Shown: piece after piece, positions 18,820-32,246 of the stretch
Numbering within the stretch: position 1 is the stretch's first letter
How the letters are laid out: every line of letters starts with the position of its first letter
Assembly (NCBI GenBank): GCA_050946755.1
Contig: JBMNVK010000001.1
Coordinates: 1 to 49,182 of the forward strand
Origin: Aminivibrio sp.
Lineage (GTDB): Bacteria; Synergistota; Synergistia; Synergistales; Aminobacteriaceae
DNA: 49,182 nucleotides
Direction: 5' to 3'
The notes under the pieces: generated by a model
Told to the model about the DNA's origin: nothing
What the model saw: the letters and a program-made list of their open reading frames with translations, nothing else
Databases searched by the model: none
Program-made: the position numbers and the translations under genes

Positions 18820-19444
18820 CCGCTTAAAAGAAAATCTGGCAAGATTGTTTCTGGGGCGGGTATTGACTCGCTCCCGGCCCCTTTCCATTGATGCCCCTGA
18901 ATTAAAGTCTGCAAAACGCAGAGTGGAGCACCATCCTCTGAGGGCTCCTGAAAGAGTGCTGGGAACCATGATGTTTGGGGCGACAATGGACTCCAGGGTT
19001 TTCGGAGGGGTTTTGCCCTCTGAAAAGACTGTTGAGGTAATAAGGCCGCAAACCCCGGTACTGAGGGCAAAAAAGCCTGCTGTCGCAGGTCGGCGGACAG
19101 GCTCATTTGCCAGGCCCGGCGTAAAAAAAGTAAATTTCATCCGGGTCCTGGCTAAAAAAGACCTTAAAAGAATAACAGGATTGCCTCAGGAGAGAGAAAG
19201 CAGGCTTCATTTCGCAAGAACAAGGCTGTCCCTAAGAGAGGGAGAGATTCCCCTTGCTCTCTTCTGGCCGCTGATACACGACAGTGTCATAAAAACTGTC
19301 CTCAATAGAGACAGGGGTACCCTTCTTATTTGGTATAATCCCTACAGCCGGGCTTTTTCACCGGAAGCTCTCCTGCTTGTCCGGCGTCTTGGGCCCGGGG
19401 GAGGAACAGAGTGGAGATGGACCGGATTAAAGATGCAAAGATAA
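18809..19444 (+). CDS. Hypothetical basic protein
   Basis: In-frame ATG at 18809 overlaps the previous stop. Fills the operon gap. Confidence 0.65.
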   Translation: MGIDRLKENLARLFLGRVLTRSRPLSIDAPELKSAKRRVEHHPLRAPERVLGTMMFGATMDSRVFGGVLPSEKTVEVIRPQTPVLRAKKPAVAGRRTGSFARPGVKKVNFIRVLAKKDLKRITGLPQERESRLHFARTRLSLREGEIPLALFWPLIHDSVIKTVLNRDRGTLLIWYNPYSRAFSPEALLLVRRLGPGGGTEWRWTGLKMQR

Positions 19445-20082: not shown

Positions 20083-20720
20083 GCAGTTTGAAGTCACGAA
20101 TAAAGAGGGGGCGGCATCGCCCCTCTTATTTTTGCCGGCCGCCCCAAAAAGGGGATCTGGCAGTAGTGATGGCCCAATCCCGGGGCCGCCGGTTTGATCC
20201 CGCCCTTATCCTCGGGGTGGCCGCGAGGTGCGGATTTGGCCTCCCCTCGGTCATAACCTGCCGCCCTCTGAGGCGGGGAGAGCCCTTTCCCACCACCTTC
20301 TGGCTCACCTGTCCTCACCTTGTAAAACTCTGCGGCTCCCTTGAGTCGGAGGGCGCCGTCGGCGAGCTCAACATGATGGCTCAAAGGGATCAGAGCGGAT
20401 GGTCCGCTTATAACCTGCTTCACGCCCAAATCCGCATCTCCCTGACAGAGCCTCCCGCGGCGAAGTTTTTACGAAAATTCCGCCGGTCACAGTGGGATGT
20501 ACTTCGCAAAGGGGGCGTTGGAGGCATTGATTACCGTGCCTCCCTTAAGGGAGGGGCAAAATGTCTGCACCTGCAGACGGCCTCGTGGCTTGCCCTGGGA
20601 TTTCACCCTGCTGCAACCTGCCTGGAGGATTCCCTCTCCCCCCTATACTGCAAAAATCCCCCTGAAGAATGCCTGAAAAATACCCCCAGAATAAAGGAGG
20701 CTCTCCATGTGGAAGGGTAG
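20079..20720 (+). CDS. DUF501 family protein
   Basis: PFPTTFWLTCP, LESEG, GVGG, KCLH motifs. Confidence 0.85.
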   Translation: MSSLKSRIKRGRHRPSYFCRPPQKGDLAVVMAQSRGRRFDPALILGVAARCGFGLPSVITCRPLRRGEPFPTTFWLTCPHLVKLCGSLESEGAVGELNMMAQRDQSGWSAYNLLHAQIRISLTEPPAAKFLRKFRRSQWDVLRKGGVGGIDYRASLKGGAKCLHLQTASWLALGFHPAATCLEDSLSPLYCKNPPEECLKNTPRIKEALHVEG

Positions 20721-22128
20721 ATTTGCCGAAGGTACTGCCCGTGTTGTACAGGAGTTCACCCAGTCCCTGGACCTTGACTGGGATCTTGCCCCCTACGATA
20801 TTGAGGGGAGCATTGTCCACGCCAGAATGCTGGCAGCTGTGGGCCTCATAGAGGCAGATGAGGCGGACAGGATTACGGAGGGCCTTAACAGAATAAAAGA
20901 TGAAATAGCTTCCGGTGACCTCCAACCCTCAGTTGAGCTTGAAGACGTGCACATGAACATAGAGAGTCGGCTTACGGAGCTCTTGGGCCCCCTGGGAGCA
21001 AAACTCCATACGGGGCGAAGCAGAAACGACCAGGTGGCTGTCACGCTGCGCCTCTTCCTCAGGGAGGGACTCCTACAAATCGGAGAAGCCATGGCTCTGC
21101 TGCTCGCTGCCCTCCTGGACAGGGCCCGCAGGCACACGGAGATAATCATCCCGGGCTACACTCACCTTCAGCAGGCCCAGCCCATATCCATGGGCCACTA
21201 CTGGATGGCCCACTTCGAAGCCTTTTCAAGGGACTGCAGCAGGCTGCTATTTGCCCTTGACTCCCTGGCAGAATGTCCTCTCGGTGCCGGAGCTCTTGCA
21301 GGCTCAACCCTACCCCTGGATCGTCACTTTTCTGCCCGTGCCCTGGGCTTTGACTCTCCCACAAAAAACAGCCTCGACACGGTAGCCCAGCGGGACTATA
21401 TGGCGGATTACCACTCCTTTGCATCCATGTTCGCCATACACTGCAGCAGAATGGCCGAGGACCTGATCATCTACGCATCCTCCGAATTCGGATGGCTCCT
21501 GCTTCCCGATGCCTTCTGCACCGGCTCAAGCATGATGCCTCAAAAGAAAAACCCCGATGTCCTTGAGCTGATCCGGGGCAAAACAGGACAGATTATCGCC
21601 CACCATACAGACCTTTTAGTCACTCTGAAGGGCCTTCCCCTGACCTACAATCGGGATCTGCAGGAGGATAAAAGAGGCCTCAAAGCTTCCCTGCGCACGG
21701 TGAAGCAGATTCTGTCTGTCCTCCCCTCCCTTATCTCAGCGGTGGAGGTGGATGAACAGAGGGCCGCCTCTTCCATGAAGGATGGCATCCTCCTGGCCAC
21801 CGATGTGGCGGAGTACCTGGTGCTGCAGGGAGTTCCCTTTAGGCAGGCTCATGAAAAGGTAGGAAAACTGGTTAAAGAATGCCTTGAAATAGAAAAAAGC
21901 CTCCTGGAGCTTGCACCTAATGAGTGGAAAGAGCTGCTTCCCGAGGCCGGAGAAGATCTGTTTAGCCGTCTTTCCCTCCGCTCTTCGGTGGAGGGGAGAA
22001 AAACAACAGGGGGCACGGCTTTTGATCAGGTTGCCATGCAGATAGAAAAGGGCCGGTCCTTTCTGGAAGATTTTGAAAAAACGGTCTTCCAGGGGAAAGA
22101 AAAGGCAAAAATAGGGAAAACACCCTGA
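20707..22128 (+). CDS. argH: Argininosuccinate lyase
   Basis: MWKGRF, LHTGRSRNDQVA, PGYTHLQQAQP, GSSMMPQKKNPD, YNRDLQEDK. Confidence 0.98.
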   Translation: MWKGRFAEGTARVVQEFTQSLDLDWDLAPYDIEGSIVHARMLAAVGLIEADEADRITEGLNRIKDEIASGDLQPSVELEDVHMNIESRLTELLGPLGAKLHTGRSRNDQVAVTLRLFLREGLLQIGEAMALLLAALLDRARRHTEIIIPGYTHLQQAQPISMGHYWMAHFEAFSRDCSRLLFALDSLAECPLGAGALAGSTLPLDRHFSARALGFDSPTKNSLDTVAQRDYMADYHSFASMFAIHCSRMAEDLIIYASSEFGWLLLPDAFCTGSSMMPQKKNPDVLELIRGKTGQIIAHHTDLLVTLKGLPLTYNRDLQEDKRGLKASLRTVKQILSVLPSLISAVEVDEQRAASSMKDGILLATDVAEYLVLQGVPFRQAHEKVGKLVKECLEIEKSLLELAPNEWKELLPEAGEDLFSRLSLRSSVEGRKTTGGTAFDQVAMQIEKGRSFLEDFEKTVFQGKEKAKIGKTP

Positions 22129-22174
22129 AAAACTCTTGAAATGGCCTCTAACATATAAAAATAATTCTAAAGCC

Positions 22175-22202
22175 TTGACTCCCGCTGTTTTTTGTGTAAA
22201 AT
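22175..22202 (+). promoter_or_regulatory. Sigma-70-type tRNA promoter, left copy
   Basis: TTGACT-16 bp-TAAAAT, ending 27 nt upstream of the tRNA fragment. Confidence 0.75.
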
Positions 22203-22229
22203 TAGCACTTGCGCACGCCGGAAAGAGTC

Positions 22230-22270
22230 GAGCCGTTAGCTCAGTCGGCAGAGCACCGGACTTTTAATCC
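22230..22270 (+). pseudogene. 5' half of tRNA-Lys(UUU), nt 1-41, truncated in the 3' strand of the anticodon stem
   Basis: GAGCCGTTAGCTCAGTCGGCAGAGCACCGGACTTTTAATCC, then unrelated sequence. No T-arm or acceptor 3' strand. Confidence 0.93.
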
Positions 22271-22371
22271 TTAAAGGAAAAATGAAATCTGTAAACCCTT
22301 GCAAATACTGCCTTTTCGGTTTTCAAGGTGCATTTTAAGCGCAACGGACTTGTTTTTACGGGGTTAACATT

Positions 22372-22408
22372 TGACGTCTCCTGACCAACCAGGGGGCGTC
22401 ATTTTTTT
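22372..22408 (+). terminator. Intrinsic terminator inside the element's left end
   Basis: TGACGTCTCCTG-ACCAAC-CAGGGGGCGTCA (12-bp stem with two G-U pairs) followed by T7. Confidence 0.8.
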
Positions 22409-22459: not shown

Positions 22460-23491
22460 TTATTGCCCCTTCTCTGGTGCGGGCTTTTCCCCCCACCATT
22501 CATCAAAGCCAACTAAAAAGGTTGTTGCCCCCTTCCGACCTTCCTTGACGGTCTTTCCTTCCCGGGCAGCTCGATCCCGCTTCCGCTTTTGTTCGGAAAA
22601 TCGGCGCAACATGTCACGGTGATAATGGTGTCCCTTGTATGGTCCGGTCTTTTTCCGCCACATTATTTTTTCCCCCGCGCTGTTTCGCTCTCTGCAGTAG
22701 ATCCCGGTCAATACGCACCGCCGTACTATTTCCTCCGCCGGTCCATCTCCAAAGAAGCTTTGCGACAATTGAAGCCAGACCGCTCCAAGGAGGCTAAGAG
22801 GCGTTAGGAGTGACTTGTAAATTCCATCCTGCATTTTGTGCGATACGGTCAGGGGAGCTTTCGCCATTCGCTCGTCCAAAAAAGCCCCTAAAAGCGCCTT
22901 GGCAATTAACTTTCTGGGGTCGGGTGTTTTTACAAGCAGGCGGATACTCCGAGACTCCCACTCATTGACGCGGACGTTCAAACACGCCATTCTCCCGTTA
23001 ACAGTCATAGGCAGCTCCTTGCCCATCTCGAAGTCCCCCCGAAGCTCCAGGAACCGCCGGACAATGGCAATTTCTTGCCGCCAGGTCGCGATCATCTCAA
23101 GGCTGATTCTGTAGGGTATGCCCTGCACGCAGACGGTATGCCGCAGGTTCCCGTATTTTCCCGCGAAACTCAAAATATCCGCGTCGGTTTTAAGACTCGC
23201 GAACTGCTGAAACAACGGCTCCTCACCGTTGAAGTAGGCATGCAAACAATTGACGGCTGAAGCTGGCGGTCCCTTGGGGAGCAGCAGCATAGGGCGTATC
23301 TTTTTAGCATCCTCCAGGGGCATGTCCTCAGCGAAGGGAAAGACCGGGAGCGTATCATCTGCCTTTCCGCCAAGGATGCGCCGAGTAGACACCTGCTCCC
23401 CCGCCTCGATCAGCTCGAAGCCCCCTTGATAAATCACGTTGAAAAACTCAGACTCCTGCGGAGCTTCAATAAAACCTTCCAGAGATTCCAT
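22460..23491 (-). CDS. Hypothetical element protein, possible DNA-binding regulator
   Basis: 343 aa ORF divergent from the HTH gene. The segment SLLGAVWLQL...IVRRCVLTGIYC is loosely reminiscent of CGNR/ABATE-type zinc-finger proteins. Basic C-terminus. Confidence 0.7.
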   Translation of the reverse strand: MESLEGFIEAPQESEFFNVIYQGGFELIEAGEQVSTRRILGGKADDTLPVFPFAEDMPLEDAKKIRPMLLLPKGPPASAVNCLHAYFNGEEPLFQQFASLKTDADILSFAGKYGNLRHTVCVQGIPYRISLEMIATWRQEIAIVRRFLELRGDFEMGKELPMTVNGRMACLNVRVNEWESRSIRLLVKTPDPRKLIAKALLGAFLDERMAKAPLTVSHKMQDGIYKSLLTPLSLLGAVWLQLSQSFFGDGPAEEIVRRCVLTGIYCRERNSAGEKIMWRKKTGPYKGHHYHRDMLRRFSEQKRKRDRAAREGKTVKEGRKGATTFLVGFDEWWGEKPAPEKGQ

Positions 23492-23695: not shown

Positions 23696-23929
23696 ATGAC
23701 GACTTTGATTCAGGCAGAACTCGAAAAACGGGATCGGAGTGTTCATTACATGCATAAGAAATTGGGCGGTAACAGGACGAGGGTATACGACGCTGCGCGG
23801 GGCTATGGCAGGGCAACGCTGCCTTTGAGGCAGAAAATAGCGGATTTTCTGGGTGTGCCTGTGGACGCGATTTTTAGCGAGGATGGATTTGCGCGGAAAG
23901 CAGTGTCACCCCCTAAAGCGGGAGATTGA
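23696..23929 (+). CDS. Small XRE/Cro-like HTH protein
   Basis: 77 aa with GGAGG RBS. Pattern SVHYMHKKLGGNRTRVY...RQKIADFLGVPVDAIF fits the XRE/Cro family. Confidence 0.75.
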   Translation: MTTLIQAELEKRDRSVHYMHKKLGGNRTRVYDAARGYGRATLPLRQKIADFLGVPVDAIFSEDGFARKAVSPPKAGD

Positions 23930-24973: not shown

Positions 24974-25227
24974 AGATCGCCGAACTTATGCAGATTGCGG
25001 CGGGTCACTTCCCGGGTGACCAGGAGGCACTCGCCGACATTTTCCAGGCGGAGGTCGTCTGCTATGCTTGGCGATCCTTTGAAAAGGGCATGTCCTCCGC
25101 CGAGTGTTTGGGGGCTATCTGTGAAGAGCTCCCGCCGCTGACCGCAGAAGATGCCGCCGGGGTGCTGAGGTTGATCCTGCGGGAGTGGAAGATATTTTCT
25201 CTAGGAAAGCGTGGTGGTGGAGGGTGA
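24970..25227 (+). CDS. Hypothetical small helical protein
   Basis: TTG start overlapping the previous TGA. Stop overlaps the rep GTG (GTGA). 85 aa. Confidence 0.6.
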   Translation: MKIAELMQIAAGHFPGDQEALADIFQAEVVCYAWRSFEKGMSSAECLGAICEELPPLTAEDAAGVLRLILREWKIFSLGKRGGGG

Positions 25228-25982
25228 GTGATGATTGGTTCGCTTTGATACCGGCAGCCGTGTTTCTTGATCCTGACCTTAACGCTCATGAAAAATTGAC
25301 AGTATCTGTGCTCATTCTTCACCGGAATGCGGAGACCGGATGCAGTTTTCCGAGCATATCTCGAATGTCGAGGCTCGCTGGGTTGTCCGAAAAAACCGTT
25401 AAACGGGCGGTAGCCACACTTGAAAAGAAGGGCAAGGTTCTGGTGAAACGGAGGCTTTCTCCAAGTGGGGACTGGGACACTAATCTTTACTCATTGAGGG
25501 GGTGGGGTCTCACAGTCCCTACCTGGGGTCACACAGACCCTACCTCCGGTCAGGCAGACCCCAGGGTGGGGTCACACAGTCCCCAGGGGTGGGGTCTGAC
25601 AGACCCTCTAACATACCCATATAGACAAACCCAGAAACAAGAAAAGTCATCCCCTAAAAAGGGAGGTTCAAAGACTCTAAACCATAGGGGAAAAATTGAA
25701 GAGGCTTTCTCCATGTTCTGGCAGGTCTACCCTAAAAAACAGGGCAAGAGGGCGGCACTCGAAGAATTCAGCCGGCTGTTTCCCCTCGACCTTCCCGGCG
25801 AGACCCTAAATGCCAGGCTCCAAAACATCTGCGGGCAGGCTCTGCTTTATTCGGAATCGGTAGAGGGCACGGAGCCGAGATACATAAAAGCTCCGAAAAA
25901 TTGGCTCAAGGAATGCGATCCGGATGAAGCGGCGACCGTTGAGGTTGAAACCTGGGTCAGGGAGACGGAGGAGCCGCAATGA
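25224..25982 (+). CDS. Phage-type replication initiator (N-terminal wHTH, HTH_36/lambda O-like)
   Basis: FALIPAAVFLDPDLNAHEKL...SFPSISRMSRLAGLSEKTVKRAVATLEKKG...TNLYSL, internal iterons, and C-terminal FSMFWQVYPKKQGK...YIKAPKNWL. Likely GTG start at 25224. Confidence 0.85.
   Translation: MSDDWFALIPAAVFLDPDLNAHEKLTVSVLILHRNAETGCSFPSISRMSRLAGLSEKTVKRAVATLEKKGKVLVKRRLSPSGDWDTNLYSLRGWGLTVPTWGHTDPTSGQADPRVGSHSPQGWGLTDPLTYPYRQTQKQEKSSPKKGGSKTLNHRGKIEEAFSMFWQVYPKKQGKRAALEEFSRLFPLDLPGETLNARLQNICGQALLYSESVEGTEPRYIKAPKNWLKECDPDEAATVEVETWVRETEEPQ
25503..25606 (+). repeat. Five 17-bp iteron-like repeats (putative replication origin)
   Basis: TGGGGTCTCACAGTCCC, TGGGGTCACACAGACCC, TCCGGTCAGGCAGACCC, TGGGGTCACACAGTCCC, TGGGGTCTGACAGACCC at 25503/25524/25545/25567/25590, followed by an A-rich tract. 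Confidence 0.85.
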
Positions 25983-27337
25983 AACAGTTCTACGACTCCG
26001 CCGGCGCGCTCCGGATACTCAGGAACCTCGAAGCCTCTGACACGGAAGATGCCGCCGCGTTGAAGCTGGAGATCATCAAGTCGGAGGCTGAGACCCTGAT
26101 CCTCGAAAGATGCTTTACTCCTCTGGAGGCTTTAAGGGTTATGAGGGAGCTGAACGGCGCGACAAATCCCAGCATCCCGGACGCTGAAATATCAGAGGCA
26201 TTGACTGCCTTTCTGCATCACCGTTTGAGGGGGATGGACCGGGCGGACGCATTGCCCAAAACCGCAGAGACGATGTTTAGGGCGGCTGAGCAAGAAATCA
26301 AAATGCAGCGGGGGGCTGAGCCTGCGAAGCTGTATGTCCCCCTGCTTGACGAGGCGCTTCAAAGTGGGCTTTATCCGGGCTACGTCCTCGGGGTCACAGG
26401 GCATGAAGGCAGCCTGAAAAGCTCCCTCGCCCTCCATATAGCCGAAAAAAACACCTGGGAAAATCCGGCGGTCCGAACCTTGTTTGTCAGTTTGGATATG
26501 ACGGGGGAGATGTTAGCCTTCAGGCGGGTATCAAGATATTTGAACGTCCATGAGGCTACGGTCCGGGAGATGGCGCAGGCGGGAAGTCCTGACTACATTC
26601 AGGCGAAGGATGCGATTCGCAAGTGGGATGGCGGAAGGTTGTTTTTCGCCGGCGGTCCGATGACGCTGACGGGGCTTGTGGAGCAGGTGGGGATGACGCT
26701 GCCGAGTGTCGTTATTGTGGATTACATCAGCCTCCTGCAGGTGGAGGGCGAGGCGGACCAGTTCAAAGCCTTGAAAAAAGCCGTGGACGGGATACGAGAA
26801 CTCCGGGACCAAACGAAGGCAGTTTTTATTTTACTCTCGCAGATGTCCAGGGCATCCAAGACGGCGGCGAAGGCAGGGCAGACTGGGAGTCACGCCTTCG
26901 GCGGCTCGATCATTGAGCACCTTCTGGACGTGGAGATCGAGTTGATCATGGACGAACCTCTCGAAGAAGATGAACAGAGGCGGCTTGTTGCAACGGTCAC
27001 GAAGAACCGTTTCGGACAAGCGGGGGGCAGCTTTGAGGTGGAATATACGGGCATGAGCAAGCGCATCACGGGCAAGGCATGGAGGCTCAAACGAGAGAAG
27101 AAAGCGAAACCCGCCTTCGGCTCCCGGGAGAGTCTGTTTGATCTGCCGGACGCACCTACTGCGCCAAAGGAGGGCGACATTGAAACATGGCTGGAGCGGC
27201 ATCCTGAAATAAGGGATGAGCTTCTAGAGGAGGCGGAGAAAGCCTTCGATCCCCTACGTTATGACTCAGTGCTTCGAGGTCATGGCGCGGCAAAGATTCA
27301 AGGAGCACCAATAAAGGGGGGTGAGGAAAAATGGTAA
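25979..27337 (+). CDS. DnaB-like (SF4) replicative helicase
   Basis: Walker A GHEGSLKS, FVSLDM, Walker B VVIVDY, LLSQMSR, KNRFG. ATGA-coupled to the initiator gene. Confidence 0.85.
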   Translation: MKQFYDSAGALRILRNLEASDTEDAAALKLEIIKSEAETLILERCFTPLEALRVMRELNGATNPSIPDAEISEALTAFLHHRLRGMDRADALPKTAETMFRAAEQEIKMQRGAEPAKLYVPLLDEALQSGLYPGYVLGVTGHEGSLKSSLALHIAEKNTWENPAVRTLFVSLDMTGEMLAFRRVSRYLNVHEATVREMAQAGSPDYIQAKDAIRKWDGGRLFFAGGPMTLTGLVEQVGMTLPSVVIVDYISLLQVEGEADQFKALKKAVDGIRELRDQTKAVFILLSQMSRASKTAAKAGQTGSHAFGGSIIEHLLDVEIELIMDEPLEEDEQRRLVATVTKNRFGQAGGSFEVEYTGMSKRITGKAWRLKREKKAKPAFGSRESLFDLPDAPTAPKEGDIETWLERHPEIRDELLEEAEKAFDPLRYDSVLRGHGAAKIQGAPIKGGEEKW

Positions 27338-27721: not shown

Positions 27722-28195
27722 ATGACAACAAAAACCAAGAAACTCAAGGAGGGCGCCTTCTCCCCAAAGCAAGAAAAGGTTCTGGCGCTGCTTGTGGCGG
27801 GCAGTAGCCAGGTGGAGGCAGCACGGCTGAGCGGAACCGAACCGGCGACGGTTTCAAGGTGGATGCGAAACCTCGCCTTTAAGGGTGAGCTGCAGCGGCG
27901 GCGCGCCGAGGTGGTCGAGCTGATACGGTCCGACGTGGCGCAGGCTATACTGTGCGCACTTGAAGCGGTCCGGTCAGGGCTGGGCGATGAGGAAATTAGC
28001 GGAGCCGTGAGGCTTCAAACGGCATGCTCATTCCTGGGCAGGATGCTGCCGGGGCTTCTGCCCAAGGAGGAGGACTTCGAGGACATCTTGAAGCGCGAGA
28101 TTCGCGAGCGGGAGATGAGATCCGCTTTCCAACTGACGACCGCCGAGGGAATAATGAGCGAGGCAGAGCAGGAACTGAAGGAAAATGCCGAGTGA
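27722..28195 (+). CDS. HTH protein resembling the N-terminus of terminase small subunits
   Basis: FSPKQEKVLALLVAGSSQVEAARLSGTEPATVSRWMRNLAF...ELQRRR HTH, followed by amphipathic helices (AVRLQTACSFL). Confidence 0.65.
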   Translation: MTTKTKKLKEGAFSPKQEKVLALLVAGSSQVEAARLSGTEPATVSRWMRNLAFKGELQRRRAEVVELIRSDVAQAILCALEAVRSGLGDEEISGAVRLQTACSFLGRMLPGLLPKEEDFEDILKREIREREMRSAFQLTTAEGIMSEAEQELKENAE

Positions 28196-29616: not shown

Positions 29617-30561
29617 TCACAGCCTCCTCATACGTTTATTTTTGGGCGTCACCTCCTCTCCCAGGATGGAGCGAATGACTCCCGCCTTATTGTGTCCCCG
29701 CCGGGTATCCTCATTTGTCAAATTGACATAATGCCGGGTCATTTGCATGGTGGAATGACCAAGGAGGGCTTGAACCGTGAAGGCGTCCGCTCCTCTCCGA
29801 AGAAGGAGGAGGGCGGCGGCATGGCGCAAAGAGTAGCTGGTAATGTCCAGTCCACACTTCTTGCCGTATTCCTTGATGCGCCGGGAATATTCCCTGACCG
29901 AAAAGGGGCGTCCGTCATAGGTGCAGAAAATGGGAACGTCTCCCCATGATGAGGGGCGAATGATTAGCAGTTTGTTTATCGCCGACACGGTGGGGGGTGA
30001 TATGGGTAGCGTCCTGGATGTTCTGGTTTTTGATACGGGGGCGCGGATCGTTACTCCTTCCTTCTCGGGGCGGTAGTCCTCCTGCATGAGCTGCAGCAAT
30101 TCGCCGGGGCGTATCCCCGTGTCCACTTGAAGCATCATGGCGGCATAGTCCCTAAGACCGGCATACGTCCTTTGATCCGGTTGTTCGAGTAGCCGGGCAA
30201 CCTCTTTTTCTTCCAGTTGAACGATCCTTCCCTGGGGGCGCCTTTTTGTTAGTCCCGCCAGGGGGTGACGGCTCCCACGAAAAAAGCCTTCGGCAATGAG
30301 CCAGTCCCAAAAAACTTTCAGGTAGGCGAAGCGGAGATTATAGGATGACGGGTTTTCGTAGGTGGCAAGAAATTCCATCGTCCTCTCCCTGGGGCGATCC
30401 AATGCGCCAGGATGACGGCGAAAGAATAATGAGAGGATGGCTTCATAGTCTCTTTGTGTACGCTGGGATATCCCTGAAGCCTTCTTGAAGTTGAGGAAAA
30501 GGGGTAAGACGTCCTCCGGTTGCAGGTCACGGTATTCCTTACGAATCGGCACGATGGACAT
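29617..30561 (-). CDS. int: Tyrosine recombinase/integrase
   Basis: DTGIRPGELL (catalytic R), SKTRTSR (K), YSLRH, LLGHSTMQMTRHY (H, Y). AGGAGG RBS. Adjacent to attR. Confidence 0.95.
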   Translation of the reverse strand: MSIVPIRKEYRDLQPEDVLPLFLNFKKASGISQRTQRDYEAILSLFFRRHPGALDRPRERTMEFLATYENPSSYNLRFAYLKVFWDWLIAEGFFRGSRHPLAGLTKRRPQGRIVQLEEKEVARLLEQPDQRTYAGLRDYAAMMLQVDTGIRPGELLQLMQEDYRPEKEGVTIRAPVSKTRTSRTLPISPPTVSAINKLLIIRPSSWGDVPIFCTYDGRPFSVREYSRRIKEYGKKCGLDITSYSLRHAAALLLLRRGADAFTVQALLGHSTMQMTRHYVNLTNEDTRRGHNKAGVIRSILGEEVTPKNKRMRRL

Positions 30562-30653
30562 TAAACATCAACCTCCTGGGGGTTTACAATTCCCGAAAAG
30601 GCGATATTTTTTAAGGGCACCGGACTATTTTCCTTTTTGCTGTGAAGGGTTAA

Positions 30654-31903
30654 GGAATCTCTGATCATGTATCATTTTCCGTAGCAACAGCAGATCTTTG
30701 ACAATAAAATCCGATTTCCGCTCTCTCTTAATCTAAATTATTGGCTAAAATAGACTTTTAACCGCCTTTTACCCTTTTTTACCCTCCTTGAGGCGGTTTT
30801 CCCAGTCTTTTAGCTGCATATGGACACAATCCACCCCTATATAGGGTTCATACTGTACAAGAGACGATCCCTGACCATGTAGATGTTCGCAAGGGCAAAC
30901 TGAACGTTAAGATAGGCGGAGTTCTTTGCAAGACCTCTGTAACGAACCTTGTTAAATCCGAATATGCGCTTGACCACCAGAAATATGTGCTCCACCCTGC
31001 TGCGGGTTCGGGATAATTCACGGTTCCGCTCAATCTCCTCTTCCGTCAGCTTTCTGTTTCTGCAGCCTCGCTTCTGCGTCAGATCAACGGCACAAGGAGC
31101 TCTACCTTTTATCTCCTTCGTTTTACCCATGTAGGCGGAGTCGCCGTAGACTTCAGTCTCGTTCCCCCTTAACAGGTCTCCTATAACCCTGGAGTCGTGG
31201 ACGTTGGCCGGGGTTGTGACCAGGGTGTGGACCGTCTTTGTGTCCCTGTCCACTCCTACGTGGGCCTTCATACCGAAGTAGTACTGGTTGCCCTTTTTTG
31301 TTGAGCGCATTTCGGGATCACGCTTATTTTCTGCGTTCTTTGTGGAGGAGGGGGCGGATATGATAGTGGCGTCCACTATGGTTCCCTTTGACAGCCTTAC
31401 GCCCCGCTCTTCAAGGTGGATGTTGACCTCTTCGAAGATCTTCTCGGCAAGGCCGTTGGACTCCAGGAGGTGGCGAAATTTGCAGATGGTGGTCTCATCC
31501 GGAACGGGTTCTTTCCCGAGGTCTATACCGACGAAACGTCGCATGGATTCCACGTCGTAGAGAATCTCCTCGGCCGCAGGGTCGCTCAAGGCGAACCAGT
31601 GCTGAAGAAAGTGGATTCTCAGCATTCTTTCCACCCCAACCGGGGGCCGTCCCCTGCCTTTTTTTGGGTAGAATGGTTCAATGAGTTCGCAGAGCCTCTT
31701 CCATGGAACGATCTTTTCCATGGAGTCGAGGAACTTCTCCCTTCGGGTGGGCTTTCTGTATTTTTCGAAGGGTTTAAGGTCTGCAAGAGTTCTCTGTCTA
31801 TTCATCGGTCACAACCTTCTCTTTGGGATAAGAGTGGAAACAGCTATTATGACAATATTATATGCCGAGTGAGACGCTTTAAGGCGACTTAATCAGAGAT
31901 TCC
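30654..31903 (-). mobile_element. IS5-family insertion sequence, 1250 bp
   Basis: Terminal inverted repeats GGAATCTCTGATCATGT / GGAATCTCTGATTAAGT (15/17). TTAA target duplication at 30650-30653 and 31904-31907. Confidence 0.95.
30837..31805 (-). CDS. IS5-family DDE transposase
   Basis: TRREKFL, GRPP, LQHWFALSDP, PDETTICKFR, IVDATII, FGMKAHVGVD, GDSAY, RSRVEHIF, VRYRGLAKN. ORF appears intact. Confidence 0.96.
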   Translation of the reverse strand: MNRQRTLADLKPFEKYRKPTRREKFLDSMEKIVPWKRLCELIEPFYPKKGRGRPPVGVERMLRIHFLQHWFALSDPAAEEILYDVESMRRFVGIDLGKEPVPDETTICKFRHLLESNGLAEKIFEEVNIHLEERGVRLSKGTIVDATIISAPSSTKNAENKRDPEMRSTKKGNQYYFGMKAHVGVDRDTKTVHTLVTTPANVHDSRVIGDLLRGNETEVYGDSAYMGKTKEIKGRAPCAVDLTQKRGCRNRKLTEEEIERNRELSRTRSRVEHIFLVVKRIFGFNKVRYRGLAKNSAYLNVQFALANIYMVRDRLLYSMNPI

Positions 31904-31937
31904 TTAAGAAAAGAATCTTTTTGTAAGGTAGGGAGTT

Positions 31938-32037
31938 AGCCTTGACTCCCGCTGTTTTTTGTGTAAAATTAGCACTTGCGCACGCCGGAAAGAGTCGAGC
32001 CGTTAGCTCAGTCGGCAGAGCACCGGACTTTTAATCC
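31938..32037 (+). repeat. attR: 100-bp direct repeat reconstituting the promoter and intact tRNA-Lys
   Basis: Identical to 22171-22270. Confidence 0.95.
31942..31969 (+). promoter_or_regulatory. Sigma-70-type promoter of the tRNA Lys-Glu-Thr operon, right copy
   Basis: TTGACT-16 bp-TAAAAT. Confidence 0.78.
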
Positions 32038-32072
32038 GGGTGTCGTGGGTTCGACTCCCACACGGCTCACCA
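31997..32072 (+). tRNA. tRNA-Lys (anticodon UUU)
   Basis: 76 nt. Acceptor GAGCCGT/ACGGCTC, anticodon arm CCGGA-CTTTTAA-TCCGG, GTTCGA T-loop, CCA end. Confidence 0.98.
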
Positions 32073-32079
32073 GCTTTGC

Positions 32080-32155
32080 GGTCCCATCGTCTAGTGGCCT
32101 AGGACACAGCCCTTTCAAGGCTGCGACACGGGTTCAAATCCCGTTGGGACCGCCA
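32080..32155 (+). tRNA. tRNA-Glu (anticodon UUC)
   Basis: 76 nt. GGTCCCA/TGGGACC, CAGCC-CTTTCAA-GGCTG, GTTCAA, CCA end. Confidence 0.98.
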
Positions 32156-32170
32156 TTTTTTTGTATATTG

Positions 32171-32246
32171 GCCGGTGTAGCTCAGTTGGCAGAGCAGCGC
32201 ACTCGTAATGCGCAGGTCTGCGGTTCGAGTCCGCACACCGGCTCCA
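32171..32246 (+). tRNA. tRNA-Thr (anticodon CGU)
   Basis: 76 nt. GCCGGTG/CACCGGC, GCGCA-CTCGTAA-TGCGC, GTTCGA, CCA end. Confidence 0.98.

What the first reader, a model, noticed from the sequence alone, without database searches (positions are those of the whole stretch)
22171..22270. Reverse-logic tRNA integration: the element duplicates the promoter plus the 5' half of tRNA-Lys
Seen: the exact 100-bp direct repeat begins 4 bp before the -35 box (TTGACT-16-TAAAAT) and ends just after the anticodon loop. The intact tRNA is at the downstream end, and a 5' half is orphaned upstream. Established: most tRNA-targeting islands carry the 3' portion of the gene and leave a 3' fragment at the distal end. 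Inference: the target is the first gene of a Lys-Glu-Thr operon, so 3'-type integration would separate Glu and Thr from their promoter. This element instead carries a host promoter in attP and keeps the whole operon expressed.
Basis: partly seen in the sequence, partly recalled or inferred. Interest (0 to 1): 0.8.

Follow-up and report, generated by a model that had tools for sequence, protein, structure and literature searches.

The report
Island carrying a swappable tRNA-promoter cassette
A 9.8-kb mobile element sits inside a lysine tRNA gene the rarer way round, duplicating the promoter-like sequence and front half of the gene so that three tRNA genes likely stay expressed; this polarity is already known, but here it is a habit of a whole integrase family whose attachment arms carry short copies of the target sequence that likely guide the enzyme.

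Summary
Observation confirmed. An exact 100-bp repeat (22171-22270 = 31938-32037; promoter-like site, leader, tRNA-Lys nt 1-41) bounds a 9,767-bp satellite-like element, with the intact Lys-Glu-Thr cluster downstream. It is not the assembler's 126-127-bp overlap. Island-free relatives have one copy after argH, and five other genomes show the same split.

The polarity is known (Zhao & Williams 2002; 159 of 3,919 Islander islands), and this scan noted it earlier on other DNA. The operon explanation holds only as a benefit. The mode is a trait of this Synergistota integrase clade: 28 of 30 closest relatives with a tRNA match face an intact 5' end, over 8 tRNA types, mostly single genes. One relative uses it at the last gene of a cluster.

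Not found in my searches: the integrase lacks an arm-binding domain, and both att arms carry an 11-nt copy of the target's anticodon half-site. These copies co-vary with the target and sit at fixed or roughly 11-bp-stepped distances. The promoter/5'-half segment is exchanged on target switches and often matches the current host exactly. An IS5 likely traps this copy. Verdict: new variant of a known kind.

The parts
20707..22128 (+). host argH (argininosuccinate lyase), left flank
   Evidence: Pfam Lyase_1 + ASL_C2; precedes a single Lys-Glu-Thr cluster in 10 of 29 relatives' argH loci
22171..22270 (+). left identity block: host promoter-like site, leader and orphan 5' half of tRNA-Lys (nt 1-41)
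22175..22202 (+). sigma-70-like promoter TTGACT-16-TAAAAT, host copy; predicted now to read only the orphan half
   Evidence: 10 of 12; conserved in island-free relatives
22261..22267 (+). anticodon loop, predicted strand-exchange region of the left junction
   Evidence: inferred: mapped blocks of relatives overlap here, and far-arm sites keep their distance from U33 rather than from the block end
22340..22350 (+). far-arm copy of the target half-site (9 of 11 match), 77 nt from U33; predicted accessory integrase site
   Evidence: 75-77 nt in 10 of 17 mapped elements, 98 nt in 3
22372..22408 (+). element-borne terminator-like hairpin + T run; predicted to stop the orphaned host promoter
   Evidence: (19 of 20 far arms against 3 of 40 shuffles)
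22460..23491 (-). 343-aa ORF, no family hit; homologues at the same end of 3 of 17 related elements
23696..23929 (+). 77-aa helix-turn-helix-like ORF (weak repressor hit), possible regulator or excisionase
   Evidence: PHROG 769, E 0.0017; role inferred
25185..25982 (+). phage-type replication initiator with short repeats at 25499-25607 (possible origin)
   Evidence: Pfam HTH_36, PHROG 270 E 7e-25; repeats
25979..27337 (+). DnaB-like helicase
   Evidence: Pfam DnaB_C, PHROG 19
27722..28195 (+). HTH protein with weak terminase-small-subunit and sigma-factor similarity
   Evidence: PHROG 3282 E 2e-5, PHROG 3218 E 9e-5
29617..30561 (-). 314-aa tyrosine integrase, core-binding + catalytic domains only (no N-terminal arm-binding domain), transcribed away from the tRNAs
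   Evidence: Pfam PF00589 and weak PF02899 from residue 27; closest solved structures are XerA/XerD; below all Xer cut-offs
30616..30626 (+). integrase-side copy of the target half-site (10 of 11 match), 54 nt upstream of the int start; predicted accessory site
30650..31907 (-). IS5-family element with TTAA target duplication (transposase 30837-31805), inserted between the accessory site and the right att block
   Evidence: NCBIfam NF033581 over cut-off; inverted repeats; ends
31938..32037 (+). right identity block: inferred element-borne promoter copy, leader and 5' half, fused to the host 3' half
31997..32246 (+). intact tRNA-Lys(ttt), tRNA-Glu(ttc), tRNA-Thr(cgt) cluster

Best explanation
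A 9.8-kb satellite-like element is integrated in the tRNA-Lys(ttt) gene, likely by crossover in the anticodon loop, and its attachment site carries a copy of the host's promoter-like sequence and tRNA 5' half that rebuilds the gene and would keep Lys, Glu and Thr transcribed. SHOWN: the repeat, the gene content, single-copy empty sites in relatives, the same split in five other genomes, the divergent integrase, half-site copies in both arms and a terminator-like hairpin behind the orphan half. INFERRED: (1) the arm-less integrase binds the core half-site (tRNA nt 23-33) and, through the same core-binding domain, the two accessory copies, forming a phased looped complex; (2) the stretch between the integrase-side copy and the crossover is an exchangeable cassette, replaced by a promoter plus 5' half whenever the element moves to a new tRNA; (3) once integrated, the element copy is converted toward the host's sequence; (4) the 5' mode is inherited with this integrase clade and opens first-in-cluster tRNAs as targets, rather than having evolved for them; (5) the IS5 adds 1,254 bp between the accessory site and the crossover and likely blocks excision of this copy.
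For: Empty sites: 10 of 29 relatives' argH loci show one promoter-Lys-Glu-Thr copy. Same-site elements with both junctions: G060, G030, G146, G050, G027, and metagenome locus L175. Clade habit: of 30 non-redundant loci with integrase >=55% identical and a tRNA match upstream, 30 are divergent, 28 start at tRNA nt 1 and 2 are 3' fragments; 8 tRNA types; 24 of the 28 have a promoter-like site >=8/12. Accessory copies, integrase side: mean match 9.64/11 to own target, 8.12 to permuted targets (0 of 10,000 permutations), 6.51 in shuffled arms, n=28; with one locus per distinct half-site, n=14, 8.99 against 7.39. Far arm: 9.06 against 7.49, n=17, at 75-77 nt in 10 and 98 nt in 3. Integrase-side spacing clusters at steps of about 11 bp (n=20 de-duplicated, R 0.59, p 0.001-0.003); the window gives 149 with the IS removed. 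Cassette exchange: three integrases 93-96% identical target Leu, Lys and SeC; in 9 pairs with different targets, arm identity is 0.77-0.89 up to the end of the accessory site and 0.42-0.58 after it, against 0.55 for random 60-mers. Host matching: both window copies differ from the sister species at the same 4 of 100 positions; two species of one genus (G030, G146) have near-identical element arms, yet each element copy matches its own host's promoter spacer exactly.
Against: No binding, recombination or transcription was measured. No contig or read was seen to span the whole 100-bp block in public runs. Loci are related, so the permutation and periodicity p-values overstate; the best period (11.2-11.4) is above 10.5, and two values (117, 141) are off phase. 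Four of 17 far arms have the best match elsewhere (42, 56, 101, 110 nt). Some accessory copies lag their target (L078 and L193, 8 of 11). Five of 28 mapped divergent elements use a 3' or whole-gene block, and 36 of 108 loci of the wider family are in the ordinary tandem orientation, so the habit is not absolute. Two close relatives with full upstream sequence (L176, L203) show no tRNA. The 57 nt between the IS-free accessory site and the block show no evident likeness to the present host's upstream DNA (by eye), so how the cassette is captured is not shown.
Confidence: 0.72

Rival explanations
1. The reverse polarity evolved because the target is the first gene of an operon.
For: All 9 mapped first-of-cluster targets with downstream tRNAs in view (Lys x6, Gly, Thr, Val) are 5' mode. 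The -35 box lies inside the block in 11 of 11 first-or-probably-first targets against 6 of 11 single genes (Fisher p 0.035; 4 of the 5 exceptions are related Arg-cct elements). A 3'-mode member of the close clade sits at a last gene (L099).
Against: 11 of 23 mapped 5'-mode elements are at single genes. G009 uses the 5' mode at the last gene of Ser-Arg. G047 shows a Lys 3' fragment before Glu, one junction only. Near-identical integrases sit at cluster heads and at single genes.
Confidence: 0.12
2. The half-site copies are not parts of the recombination complex: the integrase-side copy is an autoregulatory operator or a scar of an older core left when the cassette was captured by aberrant excision.
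For: The integrase-side copy lies at a nearly fixed 50-55 nt from the int start codon, and arm conservation stops right behind it, as an operator or an old crossover would give.
Against: A second copy in the far arm, about 7 kb from int in the integrated window, also co-varies with the target and keeps a fixed distance from the anticodon. Spacing to the anticodon is stepped. A neutral scar should not track the current target (L077/L097, L172). The roles are not exclusive.
Confidence: 0.25
3. The 100-bp block is the homology through which the element entered by RecA-type recombination or a crossover near the promoter, with no anticodon-specific event.
For: The block is perfect and long enough for homologous recombination; block ends in relatives vary (upstream 28 to about 115 nt, downstream nt 39-67).
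Against: The mapped blocks share the D-stem/anticodon region (L137 only after allowing a 1-nt insertion); G009 has a block with 1 nt of upstream identity; accessory sites are in register with U33; an intact integrase lies beside the site.
Confidence: 0.05
4. Assembly artefact (an overlap joined twice).
For: The length is exactly 100 bp; no public contig was seen to span the block.
Against: Assembly overlaps here are mostly 126-127 bp; the boundaries make biological sense; five other genomes have blocks of 88-157 bp at the same tRNA.
Confidence: 0.02

Closest known systems
Islands with a 5' tDNA fragment (Islander, PMC4383910: 159 of 3,919; parts 1-2 of 3 read). First case: Zhao & Williams 2002, J Bacteriol 184:859 (title seen in reference lists; text not held; content recalled)
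   Same: Tyrosine integrase, tRNA target, displaced 5' fragment upstream, intact gene downstream, anticodon-centred site.
   Different: Here the mode is the majority in one Synergistota integrase clade over many tRNAs. The carried promoter is often an exact copy of the current host's, and both arms hold target-matched half-site copies. None of this is in the Islander text I read; its database entries were not seen.
pTN3-type archaeal integrases (PMC8371274, PMC5495485; passages read)
   Same: The att site is the 5' half of a tRNA gene, and the rebuilt tRNA is separated from its original promoter.
   Different: There att lies inside the integrase gene, which is split, and the tRNA uses the integrase promoter. 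Here int stays whole, points away, and a host-type tRNA promoter is carried.
dusA-associated integrases (PMC4482086; passages read)
   Same: The island supplies a new 5' end and promoter-like region for the target.
   Different: Protein-coding target, with a replacement of new sequence rather than an exact host copy. One distant member of the present family does the equivalent at a metG-like gene (L134, 191-bp block).
'Simple' arm-less tyrosine recombinases, Xer-like and Brujita type (PMC8138268 passages; Lunt & Hatfull 2016, title seen, content recalled)
   Same: Core-binding plus catalytic domain only. From memory, Brujita attP needs an extra integrase site displaced from the crossover.
   Different: Two extra sites, one per arm, 75-170 nt away, that mirror the tRNA target and change with it. 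Subgroup membership was not tested.
Phage satellites / PICI-like elements (PMC10111431; passages read)
   Same: About 6-17 kb, integrase at one end, regulator-like ORFs, a replication module (initiator + helicase or primase), a TerS-like gene in some, no capsid or conjugation genes detected.
   Different: No helper phage identified; TerS and regulator hits are weak; AlpA not detected.
tRNA-dependent lysogeny (PMC10865867; abstract, introduction and start of results read)
   Same: The element compensates for breaking an essential tRNA gene.
   Different: There a short core leaves the gene broken and a separate phage tRNA complements it. Here the gene is rebuilt at the junction.

Membership tests
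tDNA island with 5' fragment (Islander criteria) | tRNA gene plus a terminal fragment of it in the same orientation, 5' fragment upstream | tested here: met
tDNA island with 5' fragment (Islander criteria) | PF00589 integrase inside the interval, not Xer or integron type | tested here: met
   PF00589 E 2e-29; far below the XerC, XerD, XerA, XerS and integron cut-offs
tDNA island with 5' fragment (Islander criteria) | length 2-200 kb; fragment outside protein domains | tested here: met
   9,767 bp; block lies between argH (ends 22128) and the first island ORF
tDNA island with 5' fragment (Islander criteria) | uninterrupted attB in relatives | tested here: met
   10 of 29 argH loci; closest one 96/100 identical over the block; no empty site from the same species was obtained
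tDNA island with 5' fragment (Islander criteria) | excision or circular attP form | tested here: inconclusive
   no such joint among contigs of 4 runs; contigs drop rare forms
pTN3/SSV-type suicidal integrase | att inside int; gene split on integration | tested here: not met
   int is a whole 314-aa ORF, 1.4 kb (123 bp without the IS) from the block
Simple (arm-less) tyrosine recombinase | core-binding and catalytic domains, no N-terminal arm-binding domain | tested here: met
   XerA-like match starts at residue 14-22; no structure was predicted
Simple (arm-less) tyrosine recombinase | named subgroup (IntBrujita, IntKX, Xer and others) | not testable with these tools
   the subgroup HMMs of PMC8138268 are not among the libraries
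PICI / phage satellite | integrase, regulator and replication module, no virion structural genes, under about 20 kb | tested here: met
   relatives (49 ORFs from 7 elements)
PICI / phage satellite | packaging-hijack genes (TerS, capsid remodelling) | tested here: inconclusive
   TerS-like E 9e-5 only; E 2e-10 in relative L098
PICI / phage satellite | induction and packaging by a helper phage | not testable with these tools
   needs culture

The most novel reading that the evidence does not exclude
Synergistota satellites use an arm-less integrase with a modular attP: two target-mimic core-type sites, one per arm and helically phased, act in place of arm sites and frame an exchangeable promoter + tRNA-5'-half cassette. 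The cassette is swapped at each target switch and rewritten to the current host's sequence, letting near-identical integrases hop between tRNA genes, including first genes of essential clusters, and giving a sequence-readable record of each enzyme's specificity.
Probability: 0.45. Interest if true: 0.72.

Novelty: new variant of a known kind. Interest (0 to 1): 0.5.

Why it matters
How integrases change target sites is an old question that is rarely caught in the act. Here integrases 93-96% identical sit at three different tRNAs with different promoter cassettes, and each element carries a copy of its target half-site in its own arms. That makes specificity change directly testable with small plasmids, and it suggests how an integrase without an arm-binding domain could tell attP from attB. 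The rebuilt Lys, Glu and Thr genes, the only copies found in this assembly, would run from element-derived DNA. The polarity itself is not new.

Tried and rejected
Viral contig scans: no match for the single integrase; with a close alignment, 12 loci, best 40% identity, not analysed further. Annotated phages: best hit 35% (Moorella phage MTATph1), with a tRNA-Phe in tandem, so not this geometry. A broad alignment was too diverged for the genome scan; the single-protein scan gave 9 loci, and its Synergistota hits were already in hand. Sequencing runs: no RNA holder listed, which is no evidence on expression. Contigs of 4 runs showed no attP or empty-site joint and cannot phase a 100-bp repeat; raw-read support for the junctions remains open. 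Phylum-wide motif search: 12 of 196 matching genomes (268 searched) had 2 or more Lys anticodon-arm copies. Six are 5'-mode islands including this one, G014 breaks at the block end, four are uninformative contig-end overlaps (G108, G167, G179, G190) and G247 has a second whole gene; the pattern cannot see short 3' fragments. The integrase tree is only the quick version: divergent and tandem labels need at least 4-5 changes, so a single origin of the 5' mode in the wider family is not shown. My first idea that 30616-30626 is a decayed tRNA remnant was dropped. The orphan transcript does not fold better than shuffles beyond its terminator (z -1.9). Rfam found no family for the 111-bp non-tRNA block of L105. 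Williams 2002 and Zhao & Williams 2002 are not held. The protein atlas was unreachable, so spread outside Synergistota is not settled. Ten literature searches turned up no description of this family or of target-matched accessory sites. Subscription papers, all supplements and the Islander/TIGER databases were not seen and may list these elements.

Full report
OBSERVATION. The window holds one long direct repeat, 100 of 100 bases identical at 22171-22270 and 31938-32037. It begins 4 nt before a TTGACT-16-TAAAAT promoter-like site, includes a 59-nt upstream stretch and ends at nt 41 of tRNA-Lys(ttt), 3 nt past the anticodon loop. The intact gene follows the right copy, then Glu(ttc) and Thr(cgt). 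These are the only such genes ARAGORN finds in the assembly, which is 95% complete. Contig-end overlaps in this assembly are mostly 126-127 bp, so 100 bp is not the assembler's overlap. Public contigs cross both left boundaries by 30 nt but none was seen to span the block, and the best run may be the source sample.

THE ELEMENT. The 9,767 bp carry a weak repressor-like HTH, a phage-type replication initiator, a DnaB-like helicase, a weak TerS-like ORF, several ORFs without family hits and a 314-aa tyrosine integrase. No capsid or conjugation gene was detected. Six of seven related elements scanned also carry a primase or helicase, so these look like phage satellites; no helper was identified. 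The integrase has only core-binding and catalytic domains and is closest to XerA/XerD among solved structures, yet scores far below the Xer cut-offs. An IS5-family element with a TTAA duplication (30650-31907) lies between int and the right block. Named homologues and record titles point to Synergistota.

EMPTY AND OCCUPIED SITES. Of 29 relatives' argH loci, 10 show a single promoter-Lys-Glu-Thr cluster, 2 show promoter plus 5' half ending at the same base as here, and 17 have no tRNA within the flank. Both junctions of a 5'-mode element at this tRNA were found in five other genomes: G060 on one contig (145-bp block), and G030, G146, G050 and G027 on two contigs each (88, 94, 157 and 123 bp). 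A metagenome contig, L175, adds one more. Where the integrase was seen, it is only 35-61% identical to the window's, so the site was likely occupied more than once.

A CLADE HABIT, NOT AN OPERON ADAPTATION. The integrase has matches in 49 of 268 genomes of the phylum. Among 30 non-redundant loci at 55% identity or more with a tRNA match upstream, all 30 have int pointing away from the tRNA. Of these, 28 have an intact 5' end and 2 a 3' fragment, across 8 tRNA types. Loci with under 150 nt upstream or no tRNA match were left out; two of these (L176, L203) have full upstream sequence and no tRNA. In the wider family, 36 of 108 loci are in the ordinary tandem orientation, and the quick tree needs at least 4-5 label changes.

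Among 28 divergent elements with both junctions mapped, 23 are 5' mode and 5 carry a 3' or whole-gene block (my tally). The 23 are: 9 at the first gene of a cluster with the downstream genes in view, 2 probably so, 11 at single genes and 1 at a last gene. That last case, G009, has intact Ser(gct) then the 5' half of Arg(acg) on one contig. Its intact Arg lies beside an integrase 71% identical over the 99 residues held, behind a promoter-like site unlike the host's. G047 shows the converse, a Lys 3' fragment directly before Glu, with the other end missing. But cluster position does not explain the polarity.

WHAT IS KNOWN. Islander lists 159 of 3,919 islands with a 5' fragment (parts 1-2 of 3 read). 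Reviews call the mode rare in bacteria and cite Williams 2002 and Zhao & Williams 2002 (passages; the originals were not held). pTN3-type archaeal integrases use the 5' half but split their own gene. dusA islands replace a protein gene's 5' end and promoter. Earlier notes of this scan report the same polarity in other genomes (unchecked); one gave me the Zhao & Williams citation.

WHAT APPEARS NEW. (1) Target-matched half-site copies. At 50-55 nt upstream of the int start, close relatives carry an 11-nt copy of tRNA nt 23-33. The mean match is 9.64 of 11 to the own target, 8.12 to permuted targets (0 of 10,000) and 6.51 in shuffled arms (n=28). With one locus per distinct half-site it is 8.99 against 7.39 (n=14). 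A second copy lies in the far arm: 9.06 against 7.49, n=17, at 75-77 nt from U33 in 10 and at 98 nt in 3, and elsewhere in 4. Its distance follows the anticodon even where the identity block runs on to nt 53-67, which places the crossover at the loop. In the window the copies are at 30616-30626 and 22340-22350.

(2) Stepped spacing. Integrase-side distances cluster near 125, 136, 148, 158 and 170 nt (n=20, R 0.59, p 0.001-0.003, best period 11.2). Relatedness inflates this, and 117 and 141 are off phase. (3) Cassette exchange. Integrases 93-96% identical target Leu(caa), Lys(ttt) and SeC. In 9 pairs with different targets, arm identity is 0.77-0.89 up to the end of the copy and 0.42-0.58, random level, after it. 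(4) Host matching. Both window copies share four differences from the sister species. G030 and G146 have near-identical arms but each matches its own host's promoter spacer. Other elements keep a few mismatches, mostly at the upstream end of the block (92-98%), as expected for a copy carried from another host. (5) Insulation. A hairpin plus T run follows the orphan half in 19 of 20 far arms against 3 of 40 shuffles.

MECHANISM, with status. Shown: the anatomy above. Inferred: the integrase cuts around the anticodon loop. Lacking an arm-binding domain, it likely uses its core-binding domain on the two copies to build a phased loop. The half-site on the element side of the crossover is a poor match (by eye), which would make such help necessary; from memory, Brujita integrase needs a displaced extra site in a similar way. 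Integration leaves the host promoter on a terminated orphan half and puts Lys-Glu-Thr behind the element's copy. Recombination between the two copies then erases differences. How a new cassette is first captured is not shown; aberrant excision from a secondary site is a recalled model, untested here. The IS adds 1,254 bp to a 149-nt spacing and likely immobilises this copy. An operator or scar role for the integrase-side copy remains a rival at about 0.25.

VERDICT. Real feature, known polarity, clade-wide habit with an att architecture that I did not find described in ten literature searches (subscription papers, supplements and island databases not seen). New variant of a known kind; interest 0.5. 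Nothing here was tested by experiment.

Noticed in passing
L134:3045 region (G172:C1, about 1761200-1773900): A distant member of the integrase family uses the same logic on a protein gene: a 191-bp exact block covering a promoter-like region and the first codons of a metG-like gene (identified by eye from its N-terminal motif), 12.6-kb element.
   Followed up: partly
L105:2790-2900 and 18913-19023 (G132): A 111-bp, 99%-identical block beside the integrase bounds a 16-kb element in a structured-looking non-coding stretch with no Rfam match; possibly an unannotated RNA gene as target.
   Followed up: partly
L116 / L090 (G025:C199): An element in the middle of an Ala-Pro-Gly-Arg cluster duplicates almost the whole tRNA-Gly and has an extended -10-like site in its arm, which could drive the displaced tRNA-Arg.
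   Followed up: no
L172, 110-165 nt upstream of int: The promoter-like site before tRNA-Arg(acg) is followed by about 12 nt resembling the 5' end of tRNA-Gln, and the integrase is sister to a Gln-targeting one: a possible relic of the previous target.
   Followed up: partly
L062:17895-18276 (G002): A second promoter/5'-half copy with its own accessory site lies just beyond the far block at tRNA-SeC, suggesting a tandem or relic element; an assembly gap (N run) lies between.
   Followed up: no
window 22294-22318 and 30593-30616: An imperfect inverted pair (CCCTT...CTTTTCGG in the far arm, its reverse complement just before the integrase-side copy); a CCTTGCAAAYAC-like motif recurs in the arms of many relatives and may be a further protein-binding site.
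   Followed up: no
L135, L136, L138, L140: A more distant integrase group in tandem orientation duplicates entire tRNA-Val or tRNA-Thr genes rather than half of them.
   Followed up: no
L003-L007, downstream of argH: Several same-genus genomes carry arrays of REP-like GTCATCC repeats between argH and the tRNA promoter, where assemblies often break; absent in the window.
   Followed up: no
window 30650-31907: The IS5 has no second copy in this assembly, but in run X2 it forms its own 1,253-bp contig at about four times the depth of the island, so it is probably multi-copy in that community.
   Followed up: partly
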